From: an uncultured Gammaproteobacteria bacterium
GTDB taxonomy: Bacteria; Patescibacteriota; Microgenomatia; UBA10105; UBA927
Reading direction: 5' to 3'
Length of the DNA: 64,000 nucleotides
NCBI GenBank assembly: GCA_964356315.1
Contig: CAYHHA010000001.1
Span: forward strand, 51,299 to 115,298
Positions 1,769-58,355 of this stretch are shown here, in pieces (the stretch's first letter is position 1; each line of letters begins with the position of its first letter). The translations under genes and the position numbers were made by a program. Below the pieces are notes generated by a model, which searched no databases, was not told the DNA's origin, and saw nothing but the letters and a program-made list of their open reading frames with translations.

Positions 1769-3235
1769 TTTATGAATCGATTATATACATTTAGCAGGGA
1801 AATAGGTACCGCTATATCAGCGTGGACTATAGGGAAAAAACTATTTTTTTGGTCACTCTTGTATCTTTGTGCGATATTATACATCCCCAACAACAAGGCG
1901 CTCCTGCTGTCTGCGATCGCATTTCTATTCGGACTGATATATATATTTAAAAATATAAAATCTGCGCTATTGTACTCTGCGATTTTTCTTCTACCACTAC
2001 AGAGCGGTAAAGGTATAAACTTTGTTGTAATTACTCCTGAGCATGGATTCGAAAAACTTCCGTTTGTTATGACGGTCAACATGACTTTGACAGGATTCCT
2101 GGCCATGACGCTAATGTATCTATCAATTCGAGATTATATATATAATTTTCGTTATGTCGTTATTTCTAAATATGCACTTCATATCAACGACGTATGTATG
2201 GCAGTATTTTTTTTAGCGAACATCGTATCTAGCATTATTTCTCCAATTCCTTCTTTATCGTTTTTGTTGACATTACAGTTCACACAATACCTATATATTT
2301 ATTACTACATAAAGCAAAACCGACTACAAGAGTGGGTGGCTCATATCATGCTACCGATGTTATCCTCATTGGCATTATTTGAGGGATTCGTTAGCGTGCT
2401 TCAGGTCTTAAACAAAGGTCCTTTAGGGAAATTGTTTGAGAATTCTAGTGACCCATCACTATCAGGAGGTTTTATACATAGAACTGTGGAAGATACGTCA
2501 ATTGTCCGCATACAGGGGACATTTACCCATCCAAATTCTTTAGGATTTTTTATAGCACTCATAGCTCCAGTTCTTTTTTACTACTCTGTATCAAAAAATA
2601 TTTCAAAATTCGAGAGAATTATTTCATCTGTTGCATTCGTGGCATCCATAACTGCGTTGGTTTTAACGGCGAGCAGGCTTTCTTGGCTCGTTACGTTTGT
2701 AGAAATTCTCTATATTTTTTTCAAGCTAAAGGAAAAAACAGCACTTCCAATGCTGTATAAAGGGTTTGGAATTATACTCCTATTGGTAATGCCTTTTGTC
2801 GTCATACCGAGGCTATCACAATTAGTTATCACTCTTGGGTCGAAAGGTGGAGTATTTTTTAGATGGAATTTACTCTTAATCAGCCAACAGATTGCATCAG
2901 AAAATCCTTTTGGCATAGGCCTCGGCACATTTCCATTAATACAACTTGAAAGAATAGGAGAATTTACATCTTCGCCAACCCAACCTCATAATATTCTTGC
3001 CCAAATTCTAGTATCCTCCGGGTATATAGGATTATTTTCGTTTTTATTATTTTTCTACTTCAAAAGAAACGTCTTTATTCAGTATATGAGGTTAGTAAAA
3101 GAACAAATATTTACGCAACGCTCTATCTTTTTTATCCCCTTTGTGGCATTTGTGATCATCTCTCAATTTTACCCGATTCTTACAGAACAACAGATAATAG
3201 GATGGCTTTGGATCTTTTTATCTATCATTGCCTAA
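1700..3235 (+). CDS. O-antigen ligase / Wzy-like polytopic membrane protein (true start possibly at M25, nt 1772)
   Basis: About 10-12 predicted TM helices; Wzy_C-like loop with ...LTASRLSWLVTFVEI...; context next to glycosyltransferases. Confidence 0.5.
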   Translation: MSTVIRGMLNRVIIQYNDECVFHFMNRLYTFSREIGTAISAWTIGKKLFFWSLLYLCAILYIPNNKALLLSAIAFLFGLIYIFKNIKSALLYSAIFLLPLQSGKGINFVVITPEHGFEKLPFVMTVNMTLTGFLAMTLMYLSIRDYIYNFRYVVISKYALHINDVCMAVFFLANIVSSIISPIPSLSFLLTLQFTQYLYIYYYIKQNRLQEWVAHIMLPMLSSLALFEGFVSVLQVLNKGPLGKLFENSSDPSLSGGFIHRTVEDTSIVRIQGTFTHPNSLGFFIALIAPVLFYYSVSKNISKFERIISSVAFVASITALVLTASRLSWLVTFVEILYIFFKLKEKTALPMLYKGFGIILLLVMPFVVIPRLSQLVITLGSKGGVFFRWNLLLISQQIASENPFGIGLGTFPLIQLERIGEFTSSPTQPHNILAQILVSSGYIGLFSFLLFFYFKRNVFIQYMRLVKEQIFTQRSIFFIPFVAFVIISQFYPILTEQQIIGWLWIFLSIIA

Positions 3236-4113
3236 AACCTAATTTCGAGTATAATTACATCGTGCCTATACTCATTGCGAAAATATATATTTTCATAAAG
3301 AAACTGAGACCTCTTGATTGGTTTTTTACCATACTATCGGTGGGCATAATAGGCTTTTTAATCGTAACTTCATTGAACCAAGACCGATGGATTGCTGTAG
3401 AATTTGTAATATTAAACTCTACGAATTACCTCCCCAACGATAGAGGAGAAGGCGTGCCTGCATGGGTAGTAGAAAATCTAAAACCAGGAGATGTCCAATA
3501 TGATGATTTTGGTAAAAAAAACCTCGAAATACTTCGCGTAAAAAAATGGGGCTATCAGAATAAAGAAACCTGGGTGACAGCCTCAGTAAGAGCGAAATAT
3601 AAGAGCAAACAGAATAAATATACGTTTATGTATCAACCTTTAGAGGTGGGCAGATCAATAAATATTACGGTAAATGGATCAAACATTAACGGAATTGTCT
3701 CTACTATCCATGGATTTTCCGACAAAAGAACGACTTATGACATCACGGTAAAAGCCAGGCTTATAGAATTGTATACTAGCTATTCAGTAAGCACGATGGG
3801 AATAGACCCATGGGTCGCGCAAGCAGTTAAGAAGGATGAAAAATTTGAAGATCCCGCAGGGAAAGTTCTAGCAAAAATTATTGATGTAGAAACGAGACCT
3901 GCAGAGAGAGTGGTGACGACCAGTGATGGAAAAACCTTTATCACCGATGACCCTATAAAAAAGGATGTTTTTATCACAGTTCAACTAAATGTCATCAAGC
4001 GGGGGGGCACGTATATGTTTCTTGAAAACAAACCCGTACTCATTGGAAAGCCAATTCCTCTTTTTTTCGATAATTTATATATAGAGCCGGTAATTACAGA
4101 TATTTTATATTAA
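3202..4113 (+). CDS. Hypothetical membrane-anchored protein (N-terminal TM, extracytoplasmic beta-rich domain)
   Basis: Single N-terminal hydrophobic segment FFTILSVGIIGFLIVTSL; no recognisable catalytic motif; start codon uncertain. Confidence 0.3.
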   Translation: MALDLFIYHCLKPNFEYNYIVPILIAKIYIFIKKLRPLDWFFTILSVGIIGFLIVTSLNQDRWIAVEFVILNSTNYLPNDRGEGVPAWVVENLKPGDVQYDDFGKKNLEILRVKKWGYQNKETWVTASVRAKYKSKQNKYTFMYQPLEVGRSINITVNGSNINGIVSTIHGFSDKRTTYDITVKARLIELYTSYSVSTMGIDPWVAQAVKKDEKFEDPAGKVLAKIIDVETRPAERVVTTSDGKTFITDDPIKKDVFITVQLNVIKRGGTYMFLENKPVLIGKPIPLFFDNLYIEPVITDILY

Positions 4114-28357: not shown

Positions 28358-28406
28358 ATGAACCATGAACCATGAACCATGAACCATGAACCATGAACCA
28401 TGAACC
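28358..28406. repeat. Perfect (ATGAACC)x7 heptanucleotide tandem array
   Basis: Read directly: atgaacc repeated seven times, 28358-28406, between two minus-strand T4SS-locus genes. Confidence 0.95.
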
Positions 28407-30040: not shown

Positions 30041-32227
30041 ATGGAGTCATCATTTGTGCTATTGGAAGTAAAAAACTCCCGGGAAAGTGAAGAAACGCCA
30101 GCTGCGATGGAGCAGGTGTATGCGGCGCTCGGCGCGACAGCGGGGCATGGTGGTTTTCTTGCTTCGTTATTCGGCCCGCGTCACGCTCCAAAATTTTTCA
30201 GCCTTGAACTAGTCTCTGTAAACTCACGACTGCATTTTTTCATCGGCATGCCATCTCTTTCTCAGTCATATGTAGAGAGTCAGATCACCGCGCAGTACCC
30301 GAAAGTGCTTTTATCTCTTTCTCCAGACTATGTTCCACATTTTTTTACACTGCCTCACACCAGTGCGCATCTGACGCTCTCAAACTCGTTTTATTATCCG
30401 CTTAAAACGTATAAAGATGTAAAAGAATTGGATGTATTGGCAAGCGTGTTAGGACAAATGGCAAAATTACCAAATGATGAAGCTGCCACAGTACAGATTT
30501 GGATATCTCCAGCAGGCCACAGCTGGCAACACACAGCGGCTTCTGTTGTTGCTCGAGGGATTCCCGACCTAAGCTCTCCGACCCCTGGTCGTATGAAGCC
30601 ACACCCGCATGCGCGACTTATTGAAACAAAAATTGCTCAGGTGGGGTTTAGCGCAGCAGTACGAATTGCGACGGTCGCTGCAAACGAACACCGAGCAAAC
30701 GAACTACTTCAATCTTTAGGTGGAACGTTTGGTGTATATACATTGGGTGGAGGAAATTCTCTACAACTCACAGAACCAGCATTTTGGAATAAAAAGCGTC
30801 TAGAAAAAGCAATGATTACCAGGAGTGGTGATTTGCTTCCCCGGAACCAAATATTAAACGCATCTGAGCTTGCATCTTTGTGGCACCCGCCTGGGCTCAC
30901 GCTCTCAATGATCAAAAACATCTCATGGGGATCGCAACTCACTGGGGAGGCTCCAGAAAATTTACCCATCGCAACAGACAGCGAAGAAGAGAAAAAAGAA
31001 ATAAATTTTTTCGCCAAGGCGGAACATAAAAATAAGCTGACGACTTTCGGTATTAAAAAGGATGATCGGCGACGACATATGTATATTATTGGGAAGACGG
31101 GGACTGGAAAATCTACCATGATTGCGAATATGGCAATCAATGACATGAAAAATGGAGAAGGCGTTGCTGTCGTTGATCCACATGGAGATCTTTGTGATAT
31201 CCTTTTGGACTATGTACCGTCTCACCGAATAAATGATGTTGTCTATTTGGACCCCGCTGATATTGAGTACCCGTTTCATTTAAATCCACTGGAGGTTCGA
31301 AATCCGGCATACAAAGAGCTCGTCTCCTCTGGCATCGTGTCTATCTTCTATAAACTCTATCATTTGAGTTGGGGGCCGAGACTCGAATATATTTTACGAA
31401 ACACAATTTTAACTCTGACGAACGTTCCTGGTAGCACGCTTTTGCAGGTTCCAGAACTTCTCACGAACGAAACGTATAGAGCAAAAGTTATTGAAAAAAT
31501 GACAGATCAAGTATTAAAAAATTTCTGGCTCAATGAGTTTGCAAAAATGAGCCCACAAATGCGTTCAGAAGCGGTCTCTCCAATTTTAAATAAAGTTGGG
31601 CAGTTCTTGTCATCGCAAACAATCCGAAATATTGTGGGCAGTAGCGTCTCAACTATTGATCTGGAAGACCTGATGAATCAAGGGAAAATTGTTCTCGTTA
31701 ATTTGTCACAAGGGAAACTCGGTGAAGATACGAGCGCACTTTTGGGAGCCATGATCATCACAAAAATGCAACTCGCCGCCATGAACCGTGTGTATCTAGC
31801 AGAGGGAGATCGGAAAGATTTCTACTTGTATGTCGATGAATTCCAAAATTTTGCCACAACCTCATTTATAAAAATTTTGTCTGAAGCCCGCAAATACAGG
31901 TTGGACCTTATTCTTGCAAATCAGTACATAGGGCAAATAGATGAAGATGTGCAGAGTGCTATTTTTGGCAACGCCGGATCTATTATCTCTTTTGGCGTTG
32001 GAGCCGCAGACGCACGACTCCTCACCCGTGAGTTTGGAGAAAAATATGAAGAGAGCGAATTGGTTGCTCTTGGAAATTATGAAACAATGTTAAAGCTCTC
32101 TATCGATAACCACATGAGTTTGCCATTTAGTGCGAAAACCCTCCCGCTTCCAAAGTCCCGAAACCAAAATAGGGAAAAGGTGATCCGCGCCTCGAGGGAA
32201 AGATATACGAAGAGAGTTGTGAAATAA
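30041..32227 (+). CDS. VirD4/TraG/TraD-like (FtsK/HerA-superfamily) P-loop ATPase, putative type IV coupling protein
   Basis: Walker A YIIGKTGTGKST followed by VAVVDPHGD (T4CP-like), Walker B YLYVDEFQNFA; 728 aa; no clear N-terminal TM, so the call is family-level only. Confidence 0.55.
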   Translation: MESSFVLLEVKNSRESEETPAAMEQVYAALGATAGHGGFLASLFGPRHAPKFFSLELVSVNSRLHFFIGMPSLSQSYVESQITAQYPKVLLSLSPDYVPHFFTLPHTSAHLTLSNSFYYPLKTYKDVKELDVLASVLGQMAKLPNDEAATVQIWISPAGHSWQHTAASVVARGIPDLSSPTPGRMKPHPHARLIETKIAQVGFSAAVRIATVAANEHRANELLQSLGGTFGVYTLGGGNSLQLTEPAFWNKKRLEKAMITRSGDLLPRNQILNASELASLWHPPGLTLSMIKNISWGSQLTGEAPENLPIATDSEEEKKEINFFAKAEHKNKLTTFGIKKDDRRRHMYIIGKTGTGKSTMIANMAINDMKNGEGVAVVDPHGDLCDILLDYVPSHRINDVVYLDPADIEYPFHLNPLEVRNPAYKELVSSGIVSIFYKLYHLSWGPRLEYILRNTILTLTNVPGSTLLQVPELLTNETYRAKVIEKMTDQVLKNFWLNEFAKMSPQMRSEAVSPILNKVGQFLSSQTIRNIVGSSVSTIDLEDLMNQGKIVLVNLSQGKLGEDTSALLGAMIITKMQLAAMNRVYLAEGDRKDFYLYVDEFQNFATTSFIKILSEARKYRLDLILANQYIGQIDEDVQSAIFGNAGSIISFGVGAADARLLTREFGEKYEESELVALGNYETMLKLSIDNHMSLPFSAKTLPLPKSRNQNREKVIRASRERYTKRVVK

Positions 32228-32282
32228 TGGTTCATGGTTCATGGTTCATGGTTCATGGTTCATGGTTCATGGTTCATGGTTC
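32227..32282. repeat. Perfect (ATGGTTC)x8 heptanucleotide array (the ATGAACC unit in inverted orientation), starting at the stop codon of the upstream ATPase gene
   Basis: Read directly; TAA stop of gene 30041..32227 overlaps the first unit. Confidence 0.95.
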
Positions 32283-32292
32283 AGGGGGAAGC

Positions 32293-32640
32293 ATGTTTAA
32301 TTTTGAAAAACTGCGTGTGTACGAGGATTCTTTGGAGTTTGTAGATCGTGTGTATGAGGAAATTTTCTTGTGGCCTAAAGATGAAAAATTTGGACTCGCT
32401 GATCAGTTTAAACGAGCTGCATATTCAATCACACTAAACATTGCAGAAGGAACAAGTAGGACAAAAAAGGATTTTAGCCGCTTCTTAGATTTATCCAGAG
32501 GGTCGTGTTATGAGTGTGTCTCAATACTTAAAATTGCACTGAACAGAAAGTATTTATCACCTGAAAAATATCTTGTGTTATATAATGATCTTGAAATTCT
32601 TTCAAAGAAAATAAGTGCTCTCAAAAATTCTCTACTATGA
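32293..32640 (+). CDS. Four-helix-bundle protein of the 23S-rRNA-IVS-protein / DGR Avd family
   Basis: MFNFEKLRVYEDSLEFVDRVYEEI...ADQFKRAAYSITLNIAEG...SRGSCYECVSIL matches the conserved pattern of PF05635-type four-helix bundle proteins. Start moved to ATG 32293, after the repeat-derived pseudo-N-terminus. Confidence 0.75.
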   Translation: MFNFEKLRVYEDSLEFVDRVYEEIFLWPKDEKFGLADQFKRAAYSITLNIAEGTSRTKKDFSRFLDLSRGSCYECVSILKIALNRKYLSPEKYLVLYNDLEILSKKISALKNSLL

Positions 32641-32720
32641 ACCATGAACTATGAACCATTAACAGTCTACTATCAACCATTAACAGTCTACTATCAACCA
32701 TGAACTACGAACCATGAACA
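32634..32720. repeat. Degenerate heptamer array (ACTATGA ACCATGA ACTATGA ACCATTA ACAGTCT ACTATCA x2 ... ACCATGA ACA), ATGAACC orientation, containing a 21-nt direct duplication
   Basis: Read directly. Includes the TGA stop of the 4HB gene and the ATG start of nadD; ccattaacagtctactatcaa is duplicated at 32657-32677 and 32678-32698. Confidence 0.85.
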
Positions 32721-33274
32721 TTTCTTTACTCGGTGGGGCATTTAACCCACCACATAACGGACATTTGATGATCGCCCAGCAAGTGTTAGATTTTACTAAC
32801 ACTGATGAGGTGTGGTTTTTACCAAATTTCAATCAGAGTCCTCCAAAGCCAGTGGCGTCTATGGAAGATCGATTGGCTATGACACAGCTCTTGGATTTGC
32901 CAAAGACCCGCGTGTCGACCATTGAAATAGATAGCAAGCTTGACGGAGAAACGATTCACATCCTGCCATATTTACCGAAAGAGCATTCATTTTCTTTTAT
33001 CATCGGGTCAGACCAGCTGCCAACACTTCATTATTGGCAAGGATGGGAGGAGCTCCTCCAACAAATGCCATTTTTTGTGTTCCCAAGGTACGGGTATCCG
33101 AACGAACCACTGTATCCAAATATGCACGTTATATCTGATGAACTTCTTGTTGGAAGCAATATTTCCTCTACAAAAATCCGCGAAAGGGTAAAGCGAGGTC
33201 TCCCGATAGACCAACTGGTACCACAAAACATAGCAGAATATATTAGGAAGGCTGGTTTGTACAAGACCTCTTAA
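32714..33274 (+). CDS. nadD: Nicotinate-nucleotide adenylyltransferase
   Basis: N-terminal LLGGAFNPPHNGHL (HxGH nucleotidyltransferase motif); 186 aa. Confidence 0.85.
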   Translation: MNISLLGGAFNPPHNGHLMIAQQVLDFTNTDEVWFLPNFNQSPPKPVASMEDRLAMTQLLDLPKTRVSTIEIDSKLDGETIHILPYLPKEHSFSFIIGSDQLPTLHYWQGWEELLQQMPFFVFPRYGYPNEPLYPNMHVISDELLVGSNISSTKIRERVKRGLPIDQLVPQNIAEYIRKAGLYKTS

Positions 33275-43575: not shown

Positions 43576-43682
43576 AAATAATCCAATAAACAATAAGTAA
43601 ATAAGGAATAAGGAATAAGGAATAAAAAAATAAGCAGTAAACAATAAGCAAATAAGGAATAACAAATAAACAATAAAGAAGT
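43576..43682. repeat. AATAA-rich degenerate heptamer array including (AATAAGG)x3, immediately upstream of the HMG-CoA reductase start
   Basis: Read directly: ...aaataaggaataaggaataaggaataaaaaaataagcag...aaataaggaataacaaataaacaataaagaagtATG. Confidence 0.8.
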
Positions 43683-45877: not shown

Positions 45878-45963
45878 TTATTGGTTCAGAGTTCATGGTT
45901 CATGGCAAAAAAAACATGTTGACCACCGGCTATGAACCATTAACCACCAACCATGAACCATTA
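45878..45963. repeat. Inverted heptamer arrays: (TGGTTCA-like)x3, A8-containing spacer, then (ACCATGA/ACCATTA/ACCACCA)x6, ending at the thiolase start
   Basis: Read directly: tggttcagagttcatggttcatgg caaaaaaaacatgttg accaccggctatgaaccattaaccaccaaccatgaaccattaaat ATG. Confidence 0.8.
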
Positions 45964-45966
45964 AAT

Positions 45967-47136
45967 ATGAATATCTATATAACAGGCGTATCGACAACAA
46001 AATTTGGAGAATTATGGGGGGTGTCCCCAAGGGTTTTGGCACGCGAGAGTGTGACCGGTGCACTTTCGGACGCGGGGCTTGAGCCACGCGATGTGGACGC
46101 ATTGTTTGTAGGGAATATGCTCTCTGGCATGCTTGGGGGACAAGAGCATTTGGGGGCATTTTTTGCAGAGGAATTAGGCCTTTCTATCCCCGCATTTAAA
46201 ATAGAAGGCGCATGCGCTTCTGGCGGGCTTGCCGCACACAACGCCGTTAACAGTGTCCTATCAGGACAATACAAAACAGTCGTTGTCTTAGGTGTAGAAA
46301 AAATGACCGACCATAAGCCAGAAGATGTCGCAACAGCACTAATGGGCGCAGGAAGCGAAGCCGAACGATTGTCCGGCATAACATTCCCAGGATTGTATGC
46401 AATGCTCGCTGGAGCGCACATGAGAGCGTTTGGGACTACTAGGGCGCAAATGGCGTCGGTTGCCGTGAAAAATCATTTTCACGCATTGGCAAATCCTAAT
46501 GCGCAGTTTCATAGCGCAATTACTGTGGAGCAGGTTCTTCGAAGCTCTTGTATTGCAGACCCATTAACACTTTTGGATTGTTCGCCAATATCTGATGGAG
46601 CGTCGGCGGTTGTTATATCCAGTAGTAAGGGGAATGGAAAAAGTAGTAAGGATTCTATTGAAATTCTTGCAAGTGTTGCGGCCACTGATACGCTGTCTCT
46701 GGCTCAGAGAGAAAGTCTTGTTGAGCTTAAGGCTACTCGAGTGGCAAGCAAAAAAGCATATGAAATTGCCGGAATTACTCCACCTGAAATCGATATCGCT
46801 GAAGTGCATGATTGTTTTACTATTGCAGAAATTCTCGCGATGGAAGATTTGGGGTTATACGAAAAAGGGATGGCCTCGGTATCGATTGAGAACGGCGAAA
46901 CAACACTTGGATCATCAAAACGTGTCGTAGTAAATACATCAGGAGGTCTAAAAGGATGCGGGCATCCGGTTGGTGCCACAGGGGTAAAGCAACTCGTGGA
47001 GATCGTCGAACAGCTACGTGGCTCTTGTGGAAAGAGACAAGTGGATGGTGCTCGTGTTGGGCTCACTCATAATGTGGGAGGAAGCGGGGCGACGGCAGTG
47101 GTGCACATACTTATGAATAATTCAATAAACAAATAA
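45967..47136 (+). CDS. Archaeal-type acetyl-CoA C-acetyltransferase (thiolase)
   Basis: 390 aa; MNIYITGVSTTKFGEL N-terminus and GACASGG active-site Cys region typical of archaeal/SCP2-type thiolases. The ORF-track N-terminal 24 aa are repeat-derived. Confidence 0.8.
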   Translation: MNIYITGVSTTKFGELWGVSPRVLARESVTGALSDAGLEPRDVDALFVGNMLSGMLGGQEHLGAFFAEELGLSIPAFKIEGACASGGLAAHNAVNSVLSGQYKTVVVLGVEKMTDHKPEDVATALMGAGSEAERLSGITFPGLYAMLAGAHMRAFGTTRAQMASVAVKNHFHALANPNAQFHSAITVEQVLRSSCIADPLTLLDCSPISDGASAVVISSSKGNGKSSKDSIEILASVAATDTLSLAQRESLVELKATRVASKKAYEIAGITPPEIDIAEVHDCFTIAEILAMEDLGLYEKGMASVSIENGETTLGSSKRVVVNTSGGLKGCGHPVGATGVKQLVEIVEQLRGSCGKRQVDGARVGLTHNVGGSGATAVVHILMNNSINK

Positions 47137-47196
47137 TCCAATAATCCAATGATAAATATATTAGAATATTAGTTTATTGGAATATTGGAGTATTAT
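47132..47196. repeat. AATAATCC direct repeats and inverted ATTGGAAT/ATTGGAGT partner flanking the RBS of the downstream gene
   Basis: aataatccaataatccaat at 47132-47150 versus attggaatattgga at 47176-47189; GGAG RBS at 47187-47190. Confidence 0.5.
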
Positions 47197-49977: not shown

Positions 49978-50957
49978 AAATCACCGCGCAGGCCCCAGCA
50001 AATATTGCATTTTTAAAATACTGGGGGAAAACTGATGATGCACTCCGGATCCCTGCAAACTCGTCGTTCTCGATGAATCTTTCTGAGGCAATTACCACAA
50101 CTACCGTAGAGTTTTCAGACGCACTGTCTCGGGATGTTGTTGAGTTTGAGGGGGATTCCCTTTCAGAACATGAAATAAGCCGTATTGTTCATTTCCTTGA
50201 CCTAGTTCGCGACAGAGCGGGGGTCCGCCTGTTTGCGCGAGTACGAACGAAAAATTCTTTCCCGAAAGGAGCAGGGGTTGCATCTTCTGCATCAGGATTT
50301 GCTGCGCTTGCTGTGGCATCAGTCAACGCAATCGGACTTTCTCTCTCGGAAAAGGAATTATCTATTCTTGCTCGGCTTGGATCTGGTTCCGCATGCAGAA
50401 GCATCCCTGATGGGTTTGTTAGGTGGGAAAAAGGTCAGGGGACGAGCGACACCTCCTTTGCTCACTCTGTTGCGCCAGCTGATTTTTGGGATATACGCGA
50501 TATCCTTTGCATTGTGGATCCTGCGATGAAAAAGGTGTCCACAACAGATGGGCATACATTTGCTTCAACAAGCCCATTATGGAACAAGAGAATGGAGCAG
50601 TTGCCGTCTGTTGACGTAGCCATGATGGATGCGTTTTGGAAAAAAGACTTCTCTATATTTGGGCAAATAGTTGAGGGTGAATGCGATAACATGCATGCGG
50701 TAATGCAGTCACAGACCCCTCCACTCTATTACTGGTCTGATGCGACTGTTAATATCATGGAAAAAGTAAAAGAGTGGCGCGCACAAGGGGTATCCGTTTA
50801 TTATACGATCGATGCGGGAGCCAACGTGCATGTGCTTTGCGAACAAAAAAACGAAGCTGTTGTTGCACAGCTAGCTGGGAATTGTGCGGGAGTTCTGCGC
50901 ATTGTAATAAACCGACCGGCAAACGGCGCGAGAGTAATTCACTCTCACTTATTTTAA
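49974..50957 (+). CDS. mvaD: Diphosphomevalonate decarboxylase
   Basis: N-terminal APANIAFLKYWGK motif; GHMP fold; 4-nt overlap with the upstream kinase gene. Confidence 0.85.
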   Translation: MKITAQAPANIAFLKYWGKTDDALRIPANSSFSMNLSEAITTTTVEFSDALSRDVVEFEGDSLSEHEISRIVHFLDLVRDRAGVRLFARVRTKNSFPKGAGVASSASGFAALAVASVNAIGLSLSEKELSILARLGSGSACRSIPDGFVRWEKGQGTSDTSFAHSVAPADFWDIRDILCIVDPAMKKVSTTDGHTFASTSPLWNKRMEQLPSVDVAMMDAFWKKDFSIFGQIVEGECDNMHAVMQSQTPPLYYWSDATVNIMEKVKEWRAQGVSVYYTIDAGANVHVLCEQKNEAVVAQLAGNCAGVLRIVINRPANGARVIHSHLF

Positions 50958-50987
50958 CCATGAACAATGAACCATGAACCATGAACA
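50958..50987. repeat. (AACCATG/AACAATG)x4 heptamer array whose last unit supplies the uppS ATG
   Basis: ttaACCATGAACAATGAACCATGAACCATGAACACTAAG; uppS begins ATGAACACT. Confidence 0.8.
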
Positions 50988-52507: not shown

Positions 52508-52570
52508 GTCTTAAGTGTACCAAATTACCCGAGGGAAAGAAAGAATGATAGAATGGAAGAGGCCTTATAT

Positions 52571-52729
52571 AATAAGGAATAATAAATAATAAATAAGGAA
52601 TAATAAAGAATAAAATAAGGAATACATACATCATGAAGTATCAAACACAAAAAATTGCACATAGAGTGTTCCTCATTTGTATATTTGTTGCTTGTTATTC
52701 CTTATTCCTTATTCCTTATTCCTTATTCC
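52571..52729. repeat. Inverted heptamer arrays (GGAATAA-type upstream, (TTATTCC)x5 downstream) bracketing the start codon of the SpoIID-like gene, within the divergent promoter shared with pilin paralog 8
   Basis: 52571-52625 aataaggaataataaataataaataaggaataataaagaataaaataaggaatac; 52695-52729 ttattccttattccttattccttattccttattcc. The latter encodes SLFLIPYSLFLIS of the signal peptide. Confidence 0.8.
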
Positions 52730-54381
52730 TTATTTCCCCGGTTCACGCTGCGGAATGTGATCCAAGTTGCGCAAACGCGATTGAATGCCGGGATAAAATT
52801 GCCAAATGTAAAGAAGCATGGGATCAGATGGAGTCAGCAAAACGCCCCCATGTCGATGCGCTCAAAAAAATGGAGTCGGATATCGCGATATTTCAAAATC
52901 GCATAAAATCTATCGAAATTTCTGTTGTCCAAAAAGCCTCTGCGATCGCAAAAGGGGAAGAACAGCTCGGAGAGCTCTTGATTCTGGCAAACCGCAGGAT
53001 ACGGGAATTTTATATAAATAATACGCGATTTACGCCCCTTTCCACATTTTTAGCTTCTACATCCATAGGTTCGATGTTGCGTGTGATGGCATACCAAAAT
53101 GCTGTGGTAAACACCGATAAAAAGGCTATTACCCAAACGGCAATTTCAGTAAAAGATCTGGAGGATAAGAAAAAATCCCTCGAACAGGAAAAAAGCTCCC
53201 TTGCGTATCTAAAAGAAGAAACAGACAAGAGAGCCGCGTCCGTGCGAAAGCTCGTGGGCGATGCGGACGCATATCAGAGTAAATTAACCGGCATCATCGC
53301 AAATCTTTCCACGTTGCAACAGTCTATTTTGAGCGCAAAAACGGGGACGTTTCAAACAAGTGTCGGTGATGTTCCGCTGGCAGATGATACTGCTTCCAGG
53401 CCGGATTATAATCCTGGATTTTCACCGGCGTTCGCCGCATTTAGTTTTGGCGCCCCGCACTTTAAAGGAATGAGCCAGTATGGAGCGTTTGGGCGGGCAA
53501 AAAGTGGCCAAAATTATGAACAGATACTCAAGGCCTACTATGGATCGGGGATAGAAATACGTGATCACAATCCGGATGCACAAATAAATGTGACAGGGTA
53601 CGGATCCTACTCTTTGGAAGACTATGCAAAACGGATCTATGAAATGCCAGGTAGCTGGGGGGACGAAGGGGGAATGGAGGCTCTGAAGGCTCAGGCGATC
53701 GCGGCGAGAAGCTATGCACTGGCGCGGGGAAGCACTATTTGTGCAACCGAGAGTTGTCAGGTGTTTAAACCGGGAGCAAAAGGTGGAAAATGGGAGGAGG
53801 CGGTAAATCAAACGCGAGGGAAAGTGGTGTATGCAAACGGATCGCCATTTTCAACATGGTATGCATCAACCAGTGGAGGATATCAGGAGTCATACAGCGC
53901 AAATGGCTATACAACACCTGGGTTTTGGGATACGGCAAATGGGAGAAGTGGATGGACCAGTCAAGCGTATGAAAAAATTGGAGGAAGTCCTTGGTTTTAT
54001 AAAGGGTGGTGGAAGGATAGATCTGGAGACAGTTGTGGCAGAAGTCACCCGTGGTTAAACAGTGAAGAAATGGCAGACATCCTAAACGCATGGTCCGCCT
54101 TATTCAAAGGGGGCGGGGATAGCTCTCGAGTGACTCCGAAGGGATCGTGTTGGGGTGGGAATCCGTATAACACCGACGAACTGCGGTCGATCGGAGGATT
54201 TTCTAGTGTCTCCGGAGTGAATGTGACCTATTCCGACGGTGGCGTAACTGCTAACGTGACGTTTGAAACAAACAAAGGAAGTGTGACAATAAATGGAAAC
54301 GATTTTTATAAATCGTTTAATCTACGAGCTCCTGGGAGGATTTCTCTAAAGTCTGGACTCTATAACATTGAGAAAAAGTAA
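52633..54381 (+). CDS. SpoIID/LytB-domain protein with signal peptide and N-terminal coiled coil
   Basis: EALKAQAIAARSYALARGS...CATESCQVF motif typical of SpoIID/LytB (lytic transglycosylase/amidase enhancer) domain; coiled-coil segment at residues 60-230. Confidence 0.65.
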   Translation: MKYQTQKIAHRVFLICIFVACYSLFLIPYSLFLISPVHAAECDPSCANAIECRDKIAKCKEAWDQMESAKRPHVDALKKMESDIAIFQNRIKSIEISVVQKASAIAKGEEQLGELLILANRRIREFYINNTRFTPLSTFLASTSIGSMLRVMAYQNAVVNTDKKAITQTAISVKDLEDKKKSLEQEKSSLAYLKEETDKRAASVRKLVGDADAYQSKLTGIIANLSTLQQSILSAKTGTFQTSVGDVPLADDTASRPDYNPGFSPAFAAFSFGAPHFKGMSQYGAFGRAKSGQNYEQILKAYYGSGIEIRDHNPDAQINVTGYGSYSLEDYAKRIYEMPGSWGDEGGMEALKAQAIAARSYALARGSTICATESCQVFKPGAKGGKWEEAVNQTRGKVVYANGSPFSTWYASTSGGYQESYSANGYTTPGFWDTANGRSGWTSQAYEKIGGSPWFYKGWWKDRSGDSCGRSHPWLNSEEMADILNAWSALFKGGGDSSRVTPKGSCWGGNPYNTDELRSIGGFSSVSGVNVTYSDGGVTANVTFETNKGSVTINGNDFYKSFNLRAPGRISLKSGLYNIEKK

Positions 54382-57804: not shown

Positions 57805-58234
57805 GGGGATGAATGATTCGACGGATGGTGGCACATTAAAAACAGCAAGCCGACTTTGAGCAGTAGTCGTAAAACAGGTTCAAACTTTATCTGCTGATTT
57901 ATCAGACAGAAAACAGGCACTCCGAGAAGAACTCGCAGCTTTGCGAGAATATTTCGGTATGTCTTCCTACTCTCCTATGTTCGCAGGGCGACTTGCAGCA
58001 TAAGATGACGAAAGACGTCTCATGTTAATTTTTTCCGGTGAATTACATGAGGCGGAAACTTAGCCGGGACATCAGGACGTACTTGACCTACTACGTTCGG
58101 CGCACTTTTGGTCAACCCTTCCCGCCAACTACTTTGTCCATTTATAGGTAGGCGGGAAAAAATAAATGGACTACGCTTGTAGACGTTTTTAGTTGCTCTG
58201 TTCGGACCCGAGCTCAATACTCGGCATCTCCACC
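57805..58234 (+). ncRNA. ssrA: tmRNA (ssrA), one-piece
   Basis: 5' GGGGATGAATGATTCGACGG (acceptor 5' strand + D-analogue consensus GGAUUCGACGG). 3' CCGAG-CTCAATA-CTCGG T-arm, then CATCTCC-ACC pairing with GGGGATG including a G3:U wobble (alanylation determinant). Internal tag ORF ends ...FAGRLAA-TAA (stop at 58001-58003). Confidence 0.8.
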
Positions 58235-58355
58235 CTTCGCTCTCGACTTTCAGTCGGAGCTACGGGTGGCACGGCCACCTTTTAAAAAGAGAGACTTTAT
58301 CGTGTGTCGCGAAGGGTGTCCCACGTAGTCCCTCTGAACGGGACGAAGTGGGGCT

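What the first reader, a model, noticed from the sequence alone, without database searches (positions are those of the whole stretch)
32227..32720. Avd-like four-helix-bundle gene bracketed by inverted heptamer arrays
The 4HB gene (PF05635-like; the family includes DGR accessory protein Avd and 23S-IVS ORFs) is flanked upstream by (ATGGTTC)8 and downstream by an ATGAACC-type array in the opposite orientation, so the flanks are reverse complements and can form a long stem enclosing the whole gene. The arrangement looks like a hairpin-delimited cassette (MITE/IS200-like or excisable module) inserted between the T4CP-like ATPase gene and nadD. No reverse transcriptase or template repeat is visible in the window, so it is not a complete DGR.
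Basis: seen in the sequence. Interest (0 to 1): 0.5.

Follow-up and report, generated by a model that had tools for sequence, protein, structure and literature searches.

The report
Hairpin-bracketed four-helix-bundle gene cassette
A small, well-conserved gene of the family first found inside ribosomal-RNA "intervening sequences" sits here between two mirror-image runs of a 7-base repeat, wedged between two coupled genes; relatives have this junction empty, holding a bare hairpin, or holding three unrelated lineages of the same gene family.

Summary
(ATGGTTC)x8.1 lies at 32227-32283. A 115-aa PF05635/TIGR02436 four-helix-bundle (4HB) gene lies at 32293-32640. A decayed ATGAACC array in the opposite orientation lies at 32634-32719. 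As RNA the arms form the outer stem (z = -5.2).

It is not a DGR: the Avd model fails its cut-off and no reverse transcriptase was found in the genome. It is not IS200- or MITE-like: no transposase, no target duplication, and the arms are not conserved.

The organism is a Candidatus Gottesmanbacteria-type CPR bacterium. In 41 genomes of its family:
- 99 of 125 4HB genes have inverted short-period arms (period 7 in 59, 8 in 25, 9 in 12).
- In the window's own genome, 5 of 7 4HB genes have inverted flanks, against 25 of 1429 other genes.
- The ATPase|nadD junction is empty in about 16 relatives, holds a bare hairpin in 2, and holds a 4HB cassette in 8. These come from three lineages (one clade rejected, p-AU 1e-12).
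- Arms keep their complementarity while their sequence turns over.
- The proteins are under purifying selection.
- Repeat-unit families are private to each genome and match the arms of that genome's own cassettes.

My best reading is a co-transcribed cassette like an rRNA intervening sequence, with an RNase III-type stem. The mechanism is unproven. This scan has found the same layout before on other DNA.

The parts
30041..32227 (+). Upstream host gene: VirD4/TraD-like coupling-protein ATPase. Its TAA stop (32225-32227) overlaps the first ATG of the left arm (TAATG).
   Evidence: Pfam DUF87, TrwB_AAD_bind and TraG-D_C. NCBIfam VirD4-like, below cut-off. The junction with nadD is conserved across the family.
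32227..32283 (+). Left (5') arm: exact (ATGGTTC) x8.1.
   Evidence: Tandem Repeats Finder, 100% matches, score 114. Repeat family D2. Pairs with the right arm in the RNA fold.
32284..32292 (+). Spacer AGGGGGAAGC holding a Shine-Dalgarno-like GGGGGA. It lies inside the loop, just before the start codon.
   Evidence: Read from the sequence. Across 99 armed cassettes the median distance from arm to start codon is 12 nt.
32293..32640 (+). Four-helix-bundle gene, 115 aa (23S_rRNA_IVP / TIGR02436 family). The TGA stop lies in the first unit of the right arm.
   Evidence: PF05635 105.1 bits. TIGR02436 95.3 bits. PDB 2GSC (XCC0516) E = 2e-16. Nearest relatives are the junction cassettes of G032 and G018 and a cassette of G011.
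32634..32719 (+). Right (3') arm: decayed ATGAACC-type array, reverse complement of the left arm. It holds a 21-nt unit x2.8 (32648-32705). Its last unit supplies the nadD start codon (ATGAAC).
   Evidence: Tandem Repeats Finder rows. Inverted pairs I1-I17, up to 93% over 28 nt.
32714..33274 (+). Downstream host gene nadD (nicotinate-nucleotide adenylyltransferase).
   Evidence: TIGR00482 134.6 bits, above its cut-off of 112.45. Orthologues found in 39 of 61 genomes searched.
45882..45961 (+). Gene-less hairpin built from the same unit (TGGTTCA x3.4, 26-nt loop, ATGAACC x4.3). It lies between two co-directional genes.
   Evidence: The orthologous junction in G001 holds arrays of a different unit, GATTAAC.
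28358..28406 (-). Solo array of the same unit, (ATGAACC)x7 on the + strand, between two minus-strand genes. It is absent from G001.
50956..50986 (+). Solo array (AACCATG) x4.4 of the same unit. Its last copy supplies the start codon of the next gene.

Best explanation
This is an insert of about 490 nt: a 4HB gene between two mutually complementary arrays of a short repeat. It is built like the ORF-bearing intervening sequences (IVS) of 23S rRNA, but it sits between two protein genes of one operon.

How I think it works:
1. It has no promoter or terminator of its own and is transcribed by read-through from the ATPase gene.
2. In the transcript the arms pair into a long stem, 28 bp near-perfect and about 50-60 bp imperfect. 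The stem loops the cassette out and brings the ATPase stop and the nadD start together.
3. The stem has the form of an RNase III substrate. Cleavage would release a translatable 4HB mRNA, because the Shine-Dalgarno-like spacer and the ORF lie inside the loop.
4. What is maintained in the arms is their complementarity, not their sequence.
5. Over evolutionary time such cassettes, and gene-less hairpins of the same build, are gained, lost and replaced at tight stop|start junctions. This junction is a hot spot.

Shown here: the anatomy, the insertion status, the family-wide link between the gene and inverted arms, the turnover of arms with retained complementarity, purifying selection on the protein, and at least three lineages at one junction.

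Inferred only: pairing at the RNA level, RNase III processing, and what the protein does.
For: Anatomy and fold.

Insertion status:
- The same-genus G001 lacks the segment.
- About 16 relatives have the junction empty.
- On the host tree the filled junctions are concentrated in one 8-genome clade.

Family-wide rule:
- 99 of 125 4HB genes have inverted flanks scoring 14 or more. The direct-repeat control gives 10 and shuffles give 0.
- The best period of the arms is 7 in 59 cassettes, 8 in 25 and 9 in 12.
- In the window's own genome, 5 of 7 4HB genes against 25 of 1429 other genes, p = 6e-8.

Co-transcription:
- The upstream neighbour is co-directional in 25 of 28 cassettes with long flanks, and the arms usually start within a few nt of its stop.
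- No promoter-like or terminator-like site lies inside the cassette on the + strand.

Structure, not sequence, is kept:
- Arm-to-arm similarity between cassettes falls from 23-25 (proteins 70% identical or more) to 9 (40-55% identical). Background is 7.4. Within-cassette complementarity stays at 16-19 throughout.
- At this same locus the unit changes while each pair of arms still matches: AATAATCC against AATAAGC, and ATGAACC against ATGAACG.

Strand asymmetries:
- On the sense strand G.U mismatches outnumber A.C, 148 to 110 (p = 0.02 pooled).
- The 5' arm is purine-rich in 73 of 95 cassettes.

Other support:
- RNase III is encoded in the genome, 128.6 bits.
- Precedent: the Coxiella IVS has a 28-bp stem, tandem heptamers before the same family's ORF, and was cut by RNase III in vitro (PMC4990558).
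- 23S_rRNA_IVP ORFs occur in rRNA insertions of CPR bacteria (bioRxiv 10.1101/2024.02.27.582315).
- The protein is functional: dN/dS has a median of 0.085.
Against: - No transcript data exist, so RNA pairing and RNase III cleavage are untested.
- The G.U excess is weak. Per cassette it is 45 against 29 (p = 0.08), and it is absent where the 5' base is a pyrimidine.
- Gene-less hairpins of the ATAGTTC/ATGAACC type occur in both orientations relative to their flanking genes. An RNA-only role does not predict that.
- The model does not explain why the period is 7-9 nt.
- It does not explain why unit families are private to a genome and shared between cassette arms and many gene-less arrays. That pattern points to a copying or spreading process at the DNA level.
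- The right arm here is decayed (67% matches), so the full-length stem is imperfect.
Confidence: 0.45

Rival explanations
1. It is a mobile DNA element. The gene plus its arms, and gene-less hairpin or array derivatives, are copied or moved at the DNA level into tight gene junctions. The arms would extrude as hairpins in single-stranded DNA. The agent would be a trans-acting host enzyme or the 4HB protein itself, as Ralph and McClelland proposed for the IVS ORF.
For: - Eight cassettes at one junction come from three lineages, and a single clade is rejected (delta lnL 217.7, p-AU 1e-12).
- Relatives of the B2 junction lineage sit at other loci with about 60% protein identity and the same AAATCCN arm family, so gene and arms relocate together.
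- Unit families are private to a genome. ATGAACC x3 gives 45 hits and AGATTTA x3 gives 75 hits in G000, and both give 0 in the same-genus G001. GATTAAC x3 gives 28 hits in G001 and 0 in G000. Each of these units is the arm unit of a 4HB cassette in that genome.
- G011's bare hairpin at this junction carries the unit family of G011's own A-type cassette 8 kb away.
- Possible excision footprints: CAACC in G001 and TAATCT in G034.
Against: - No recombinase, transposase or reverse transcriptase is associated.
- No target-site duplication is visible.
- Most 4HB clades have one member per genome at a conserved locus, which means long vertical descent.
- dN/dS near 0.09 fits a maintained host gene as well as a selfish one.
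- Only about a third of G000's exact arrays (34 of 96) carry a unit that matches one of its cassettes.
Confidence: 0.27
2. The arms, and the gene-less arrays of the same unit elsewhere, are binding sites for the pentameric 4HB protein. The cassette would then be an autoregulated gene, and the arrays its set of targets: a regulator, a nucleoid or RNA chaperone, or a self/non-self mark.
For: - The two most abundant heptamer families of G000 are the arm units of two of its 4HB cassettes, and G001 shows the same with a different unit.
- Related 4HB clades have related arm units: the B lineage and its sister clade X1 share AATAATCC/AATAAGC/AATACTACC, and the B2 clade shares AAATCCN.
- The protein is under strong purifying selection.
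- The closest solved relative, XCC0516, is described as a homopentameric ring (PMC4990558 citing Lin 2006).
Against: - G000 has about 40 unit classes but only 8 4HB genes.
- AATAATCC arrays occur in G000 without a B-type or X1-type 4HB.
- G008 and G036 carry the orthologue of the AGATTTA-armed gene but show no expansion of that unit.
- Nucleic-acid binding specificity is not known for any family member outside the DGR Avd.
Confidence: 0.18
3. It is coincidence. The genome is littered with slippage-prone heptamer spacers at gene junctions, and this 4HB gene merely lies between two of them.
For: Period-7 arrays are very common here: 358 Tandem Repeats Finder rows, against 49 for period 6. They sit at many junctions in the window.
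Against: - Inverted flanks occur at 5 of 7 4HB genes against 1.7% of other genes, p = 6e-8.
- Across the family 79% of 4HB genes are armed. The direct-orientation control gives 10 of 125 and shuffles give none.
Confidence: 0.03
4. It is a remnant or accessory (Avd) of a diversity-generating retroelement.
For: A weak match to the Avd model NF033474, E = 3.6e-4. The fold family is shared.
Against: The score is 20.8 bits against a cut-off of 80. No RVT_1 was found in the genome. No template or variable repeat pair is present. There are 8 such genes in this genome and well over 150 matches across the family's 41 genomes.
Confidence: 0.02

Closest known systems
ORF-bearing intervening sequences (IVS) of 23S rRNA genes (Coxiella burnetii helix 45, Leptospira; S23p ORF), PMC4990558
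   Same: - The ORF belongs to the same protein family (PF05635).
- The ORF is enclosed by terminal inverted repeats that form a long stem. The stem is 28 bp in Coxiella, and the best near-perfect stretch here is 28 nt.
- Tandem heptamers lie directly upstream of the ORF (GACAGAT x3 in Coxiella).
- The size is similar: about 430-490 nt.
- ORF-less short versions exist in both settings.
- It is an insert in a transcribed unit that tolerates it.
   Different: - Here the host is an mRNA operon junction (ATPase|nadD), not an rRNA helix.
- Both arms are whole tandem arrays, and the unit differs from locus to locus.
- The protein is under purifying selection, whereas the Coxiella ORF is reported to be decaying and probably not translated.
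- RNase III processing is shown for the IVS and only inferred here.
Intergenic heptamer repeats: GGGAATC in Xanthomonas and GGGGAYT in Nostoc (PMC4692102), TAACTGA in Beggiatoaceae (PMC4679880), heptanucleotide x4 elements of Geobacter (PMC2700814)
   Same: - Tandem 7-nt units are over-represented.
- They lie mostly between co-directional genes, close to stop and start codons.
- 70-75 convergent inverted pairs are reported in Xanthomonas.
- They are transcribed.
   Different: - None of these papers contains the terms S23, four-helix or intervening sequence where I searched for them. They therefore make no link to a PF05635 gene.
- Each of those genomes is described by one or a few dominant units. 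Here there are about 40 unit classes per genome, with families private to each genome.
RAYT/REP (REPIN) systems
   Same: A gene flanked by inverted copies of a short hairpin-forming repeat that is also scattered, without the gene, through the same genome. The repeat families are specific to a genome.
   Different: - The enclosed gene is not a Y1 transposase.
- The repeats are tandem arrays, not single imperfect palindromes.
- This genome has separate RAYT-like genes with their own REP palindromes.
DGR accessory protein Avd
   Same: The four-helix-bundle fold superfamily. A distant HMM match.
   Different: It fails the Avd model's cut-off. There is no reverse transcriptase and no template/variable repeat pair.

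Membership tests
PF05635 / TIGR02436 four-helix-bundle protein (23S rRNA IVS protein) | Profile score above the curated cut-off over the full length | tested here: met
   PF05635 105.1 bits (cut-off 33.8), profile positions 1-105 of 106. TIGR02436 95.3 bits (cut-off 24).
PF05635 / TIGR02436 four-helix-bundle protein (23S rRNA IVS protein) | Sequence kinship to a solved four-helix-bundle member | tested here: met
   PDB 2GSC (XCC0516) E = 2.1e-16 over residues 5-114. PDB 2RLD E = 9e-5. Oligomeric state was not tested.
23S rRNA intervening sequence (IVS) | Located in a 23S rRNA helix (9, 25 or 45) | tested here: not met
   It lies between the ATPase gene and nadD. The genome's own 23S rRNA (contig C44, model positions 16-1931, then the contig ends) shows no insert in that part.
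23S rRNA intervening sequence (IVS) | Terminal inverted repeats forming a stem that encloses the ORF | tested here: met
23S rRNA intervening sequence (IVS) | Excision by RNase III | not testable with these tools
   An RNase III gene is present at G000:C4:51230-51616, 128.6 bits. No transcript data are available.
DGR Avd | NF033474 score above its cut-off, and an adjacent reverse transcriptase with a template/variable repeat pair | tested here: not met
   20.8 bits against a cut-off of 80. No RVT_1 in the genome.
IS200/IS605 or RAYT-REP element | A Y1 (HUH) transposase encoded between the hairpin ends | tested here: not met
   The only ORF is the 4HB gene. The genome's Y1_Tnp genes (C15:33113-33793, C32:3254-3952) are flanked by REP palindromes of another kind.
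MITE | Terminal inverted repeats conserved between many near-identical copies, plus a target-site duplication | tested here: not met
   Arms differ between the genome's cassettes. No duplication is visible when the filled site is compared with the empty one.
Intergenic heptamer simple-sequence repeats (STRR-like) | Tandem 7-nt units, enriched over other periods, between co-directional genes | tested here: met
   358 period-7 rows against 49 for period 6 and 131 for period 8. Junction positions are shown.

The most novel reading that the evidence does not exclude
Heptamer-array hairpins, with or without a 4HB gene in the loop, are one class of copy-and-spread genetic element, and rRNA intervening sequences are the special case that landed in rRNA. 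The 4HB protein would be the element's own factor, recognising or maintaining its cognate repeat unit. That would explain why unit families are private to a genome, why they match the arms of that genome's 4HB cassettes, and why they are overwritten at conserved junctions between species of one genus.
Probability: 0.25. Interest if true: 0.85.

Novelty: new variant of a known kind. Interest (0 to 1): 0.62.

Why it matters
Two old puzzles could be two faces of one thing, and this lineage makes that testable. One is what rRNA intervening sequences and their conserved ORF are for. The other is why 7-base tandem repeats are over-represented in many bacterial genomes.

This Gottesmanbacteria family is an unusually clean natural experiment:
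- About 80% of its 4HB genes carry inverted arms.
- A single orthologous junction shows empty, bare-hairpin and three independent filled states.
- Genomes of one genus differ completely in their repeat-unit families.

If the RNA-stem model holds, such cassettes would be a way to insert a gene into an operon without breaking it. If the spreading model holds, it would be a mobile-element class with no recognisable recombinase.

Tried and rejected
- DGR/Avd reading. Rejected by the model score and by the absence of a reverse transcriptase.
- IS200/RAYT reading. The genome's two Y1-transposase-like genes do have inverted flanks, but these are classical REP palindromes, not heptamer arrays.
- A stop-codon barrier in the arms. 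There is no asymmetry: all-frame stops occur in 29 left arms and 28 right arms of 95.
- A strict one-to-one match of every array family to a resident 4HB gene. Rejected. Only 34 of 96 exact arrays match a cassette unit, and AATAATCC arrays are widespread and occur without the cognate gene.
- Repeat unit seeded from the local native sequence. This was suggestive at this junction, because empty G001 has AACC-ATGAA, as at the end of the right arm. But the solo ATGAACC array at 28358 has no such seed in G001. The G001 sequence is equally well read as an excision footprint. I left this undecided.
- An IVS in this genome's own 23S rRNA. The assembled part of the gene shows none, but the contig ends at model position about 1931.
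- Pairs of inverted arrays 734-794 nt apart (C59, C74). They enclose ordinary gene segments and are probably neighbouring junction arrays, not cassettes.
- Literature. Six searches found no paper linking PF05635 genes to inverted heptamer arrays outside rRNA (a seventh failed on a term-length error).
Full report
WHAT IS THERE

The window reads (ATGGTTC)x8.1, exact, at 32227-32283. A 9-nt spacer with a GGGGGA Shine-Dalgarno-like motif follows. Then comes an ATG at 32293 that opens a 115-codon gene ending at 32640. Overlapping its stop is a decayed ATGAACC-type array at 32634-32719, which holds a 21-nt unit repeated 2.8 times.

The gene is a clear member of the 23S-rRNA-IVS-protein / four-helix-bundle family. 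It scores 105.1 bits on PF05635 and 95.3 bits on TIGR02436. Its closest solved relative is XCC0516 (PDB 2GSC, E = 2e-16). It is not Avd: the Avd model gives 20.8 bits against a cut-off of 80.

The arms are reverse complements: 93% over 28 nt and 80-82% over about 50 nt. Folded as RNA, 32205-32740 puts them together as the outer stem, with z = -5.2 against dinucleotide shuffles.

Upstream, the TAA stop of a VirD4/TraD-like ATPase gene overlaps the first ATG of the array. Downstream, the last heptamer supplies the start codon of nadD. No promoter-like or terminator-like site lies within the cassette on the + strand.

THE ORGANISM AND ITS REPEATS

The genome has 1.715 Mb in 82 contigs, 41% G+C, and is 97.8% complete. 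Its relatives carry titles of Candidatus Gottesmanbacteria, a CPR lineage.

It is full of short-period arrays. Tandem Repeats Finder gives 358 rows of period 7, against 49 of period 6 and 131 of period 8. There are 96 exact arrays of three or more copies, in about 40 unit classes. Several contigs start in an array, which probably explains part of the fragmentation.

The genome encodes RNase III. No RVT_1-type reverse transcriptase was found.

THE LAYOUT IS A RULE FOR THIS GENE FAMILY HERE

The genome has 8 PF05635 matches, and by eye 6-7 are flanked by inverted arrays whose unit differs from locus to locus: AGATTTA, GGGTTAC, AAGTAAC and others.

Across 41 genomes of the family, 38 carry the gene family. 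I fetched 140 loci and recovered 132 4HB ORFs. Of the 125 with both flanks present:
- 99 (79%) have inverted flanks scoring 14 or more.
- The direct-orientation control gives 10, and shuffled flanks give 0.

The arms have a median length of 34 nt. Their best period is 7 in 59 cassettes, 8 in 25 and 9 in 12. They end a median of 12 nt before the start codon and begin a median of 7 nt after the stop.

With one flank definition applied to every ORF of the window's genome, 5 of 7 4HB genes pass, against 25 of 1429 others (p = 6e-8). The "others" are mostly RAYT-like Y1 transposase genes with ordinary REP palindromes and Trp-repressor-like genes with palindromic flanks. Coincidence is therefore excluded. 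So is the IS200-like reading of this cassette.

IT IS AN INSERT, AND THIS JUNCTION IS A HOT SPOT

The ATPase|nadD adjacency is conserved through the family. The junction states are:
- Empty in about 16 genomes, where the stop and start lie -4 to about 50 nt apart. These include the syntenic same-genus genome G001.
- A gene-less hairpin of arrays in 2 genomes (83 and 107 nt).
- A 4HB cassette in 8 genomes.

The eight cassette genes fall into three lineages:
- A: this window, G032 and G018.
- B: G002, G026 and G025, a clade with starred support.
- B2: G008 and G063.

Each lineage has its nearest relatives at other loci. Forcing the eight genes into one clade costs 217.7 log-likelihood units (p-AU 1e-12).

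On the host tree, six of the filled sites lie in one well-supported 8-genome clade, interleaved with two empty ones. Within the window's own genus the three genomes are A, B and empty. The history therefore needs several gains, losses or replacements. I cannot tell tandem ancestry with differential loss from repeated insertion.

Empty G001 keeps CAACC before the nadD ATG, and empty G034 keeps TAATCT. Both could be excision footprints of the A and B arms. This is an inference only.

WHAT IS CONSERVED IS PAIRING, NOT SEQUENCE

Many 4HB clades have one member per genome at a conserved locus, which means vertical descent. The arms of close orthologues resemble each other, but the resemblance fades quickly:
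- Mean score 23-25 when the proteins are 70% identical or more.
- 12-16 at 55-70% identity.
- 9 at 40-55% identity.
- Background is 7.4.

Within-cassette complementarity stays at 16-19 throughout.

At this very junction the B lineage has AATAATCC/GGATTATT in one genome and AATAAGC/GCTTATT in two others. The A lineage has ATGGTTC/ATGAACC here and GTTCATC/GATGAAC in G032.

That is compensatory turnover. It argues for a structural role of the arms and against sequence-specific termini.

The proteins are under purifying selection, with a median dN/dS of 0.085, although dS is often saturated. This contrasts with the decaying ORF reported for the Coxiella IVS (PMC4990558).

RNA OR DNA?

For an RNA role:
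- The upstream neighbour is co-directional in 25 of 28 cassettes, and the arms abut its stop codon.
- The 5' arm is purine-rich on the sense strand in 73 of 95 cassettes.
- Sense-strand G.U mismatches outnumber A.C, 148 to 110. This is only p = 0.02 pooled and p = 0.08 per cassette.
- The experimentally studied relative, the Coxiella IVS, has a 28-bp stem, tandem heptamers before the ORF, and is cut by RNase III in vitro.
- CPR rRNA insertions also carry this ORF family.

For a DNA-level copying process, the unit families are private to a genome:
- ATGAACC x3 (up to 2 mismatches) gives 45 hits at 19 places (17 besides the cassette's own two arms) in this genome, 0 in same-genus G001 and few elsewhere.
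- AGATTTA x3 gives 75 hits here and 0 in both genomes of the same genus.
- GATTAAC x3 gives 28 hits in G001 and 0 here.
- Each of these is the arm unit of a 4HB cassette in that genome.
- Two junctions in the window that hold arrays in both genomes hold different units.

The match is not one-to-one. Only about a third of this genome's exact arrays share a unit with a cassette. AATAATCC arrays are widespread and occur here without the corresponding 4HB lineage.

VERDICT

The IS200/MITE analogy is not supported.

The closest known thing is the ORF-bearing rRNA intervening sequence. This is the same module in an operon junction, so I class it as a new variant of a known kind.

I found no paper that links PF05635 genes to inverted heptamer arrays outside rRNA. 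This scan has reported the same layout before on other genomes.

What this locus adds:
- The three-lineage series at one orthologous junction.
- The very high share of armed genes in one CPR family.
- The turnover of arm sequence with retained complementarity.
- The genome-private unit families that match the arms of resident cassettes.

The mechanism remains inferred: 0.45 for the RNA stem with RNase III processing, 0.27 for a DNA-level mobile element, and 0.18 for arms as cognate binding sites of the protein.

Noticed in passing
window 47116-47195: A gene-less hairpin built from AATAATCC octamers. This is the arm unit of the B-type cassette that occupies the ATPase|nadD junction in same-genus G002. 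It lies between two co-directional genes. G001 has a hairpin of a different unit (GGGTA.. / ..TACCC) at the same junction.
   Followed up: partly
window 43584-43676: (CAATAAG)x13 fills the whole gap between two co-directional genes. It is single-orientation and purine-rich, and is absent or much shorter in G001.
   Followed up: partly
window 52567-52734: AATAAGA/AATAAGG arrays lie before a gene start, and an exact (TTATTCC)x5.7 lies inside the beginning of the same ORF (52633-54381). Together they form an inverted pair across the start codon.
   Followed up: no
   Followed up: no
G000:C74:2450-3450 (outside the window): The C-terminal part of a valyl-tRNA synthetase-like ORF starts right after an AAATCCA array and a small palindrome, and ends at an AGATTTA-type array. 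The gene may be split by, or carry, an in-frame array insert.
   Followed up: no
G000:C56:3143-3230 (outside the window): A GTTCAT...ATGAAC hairpin lies inside a long open frame (1808-4057) and seems to be read through as coding sequence.
   Followed up: no
G000:C32:1900-4200 and C15:33113-33793 (outside the window): Two RAYT-like Y1 transposase genes. The C32 gene (Y1_Tnp 19.8 bits, below the family's cut-off of 23) is flanked by classical REP palindromes such as TTCCACCTCCGAGGTGGAA. The C15 gene (34.3 bits, above the cut-off) has a shorter CACACCCGGTGTG repeat on both sides. This repeat system is separate from the heptamer arrays.
   Followed up: partly
G000:C17:14050-14837 and C2:104754-105197 (outside the window): Trp-repressor-like small genes bracketed by perfect palindromes. 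At C17 the palindrome is ACATGAATCGATTCATGT. At C2 both flanks carry CTTTGTTACTGTGTTTTAAAACAAGGTAACAA-like copies.
   Followed up: no
G000:C44:8482-10456 (outside the window): The 23S rRNA gene is cut off by the contig end at about model position 1931. The assembly break may hide an insertion.
   Followed up: no
L021/L099 (G017:C51) and L027 (G021:C11): In two relatives, 4HB cassettes sit directly downstream of nadD instead of upstream, and G017 has two in a row. The nadD neighbourhood as a whole seems prone to these inserts.
   Followed up: partly
window 57805-58235: A tmRNA gene (RF00023, 97.9 bits).
   Followed up: no
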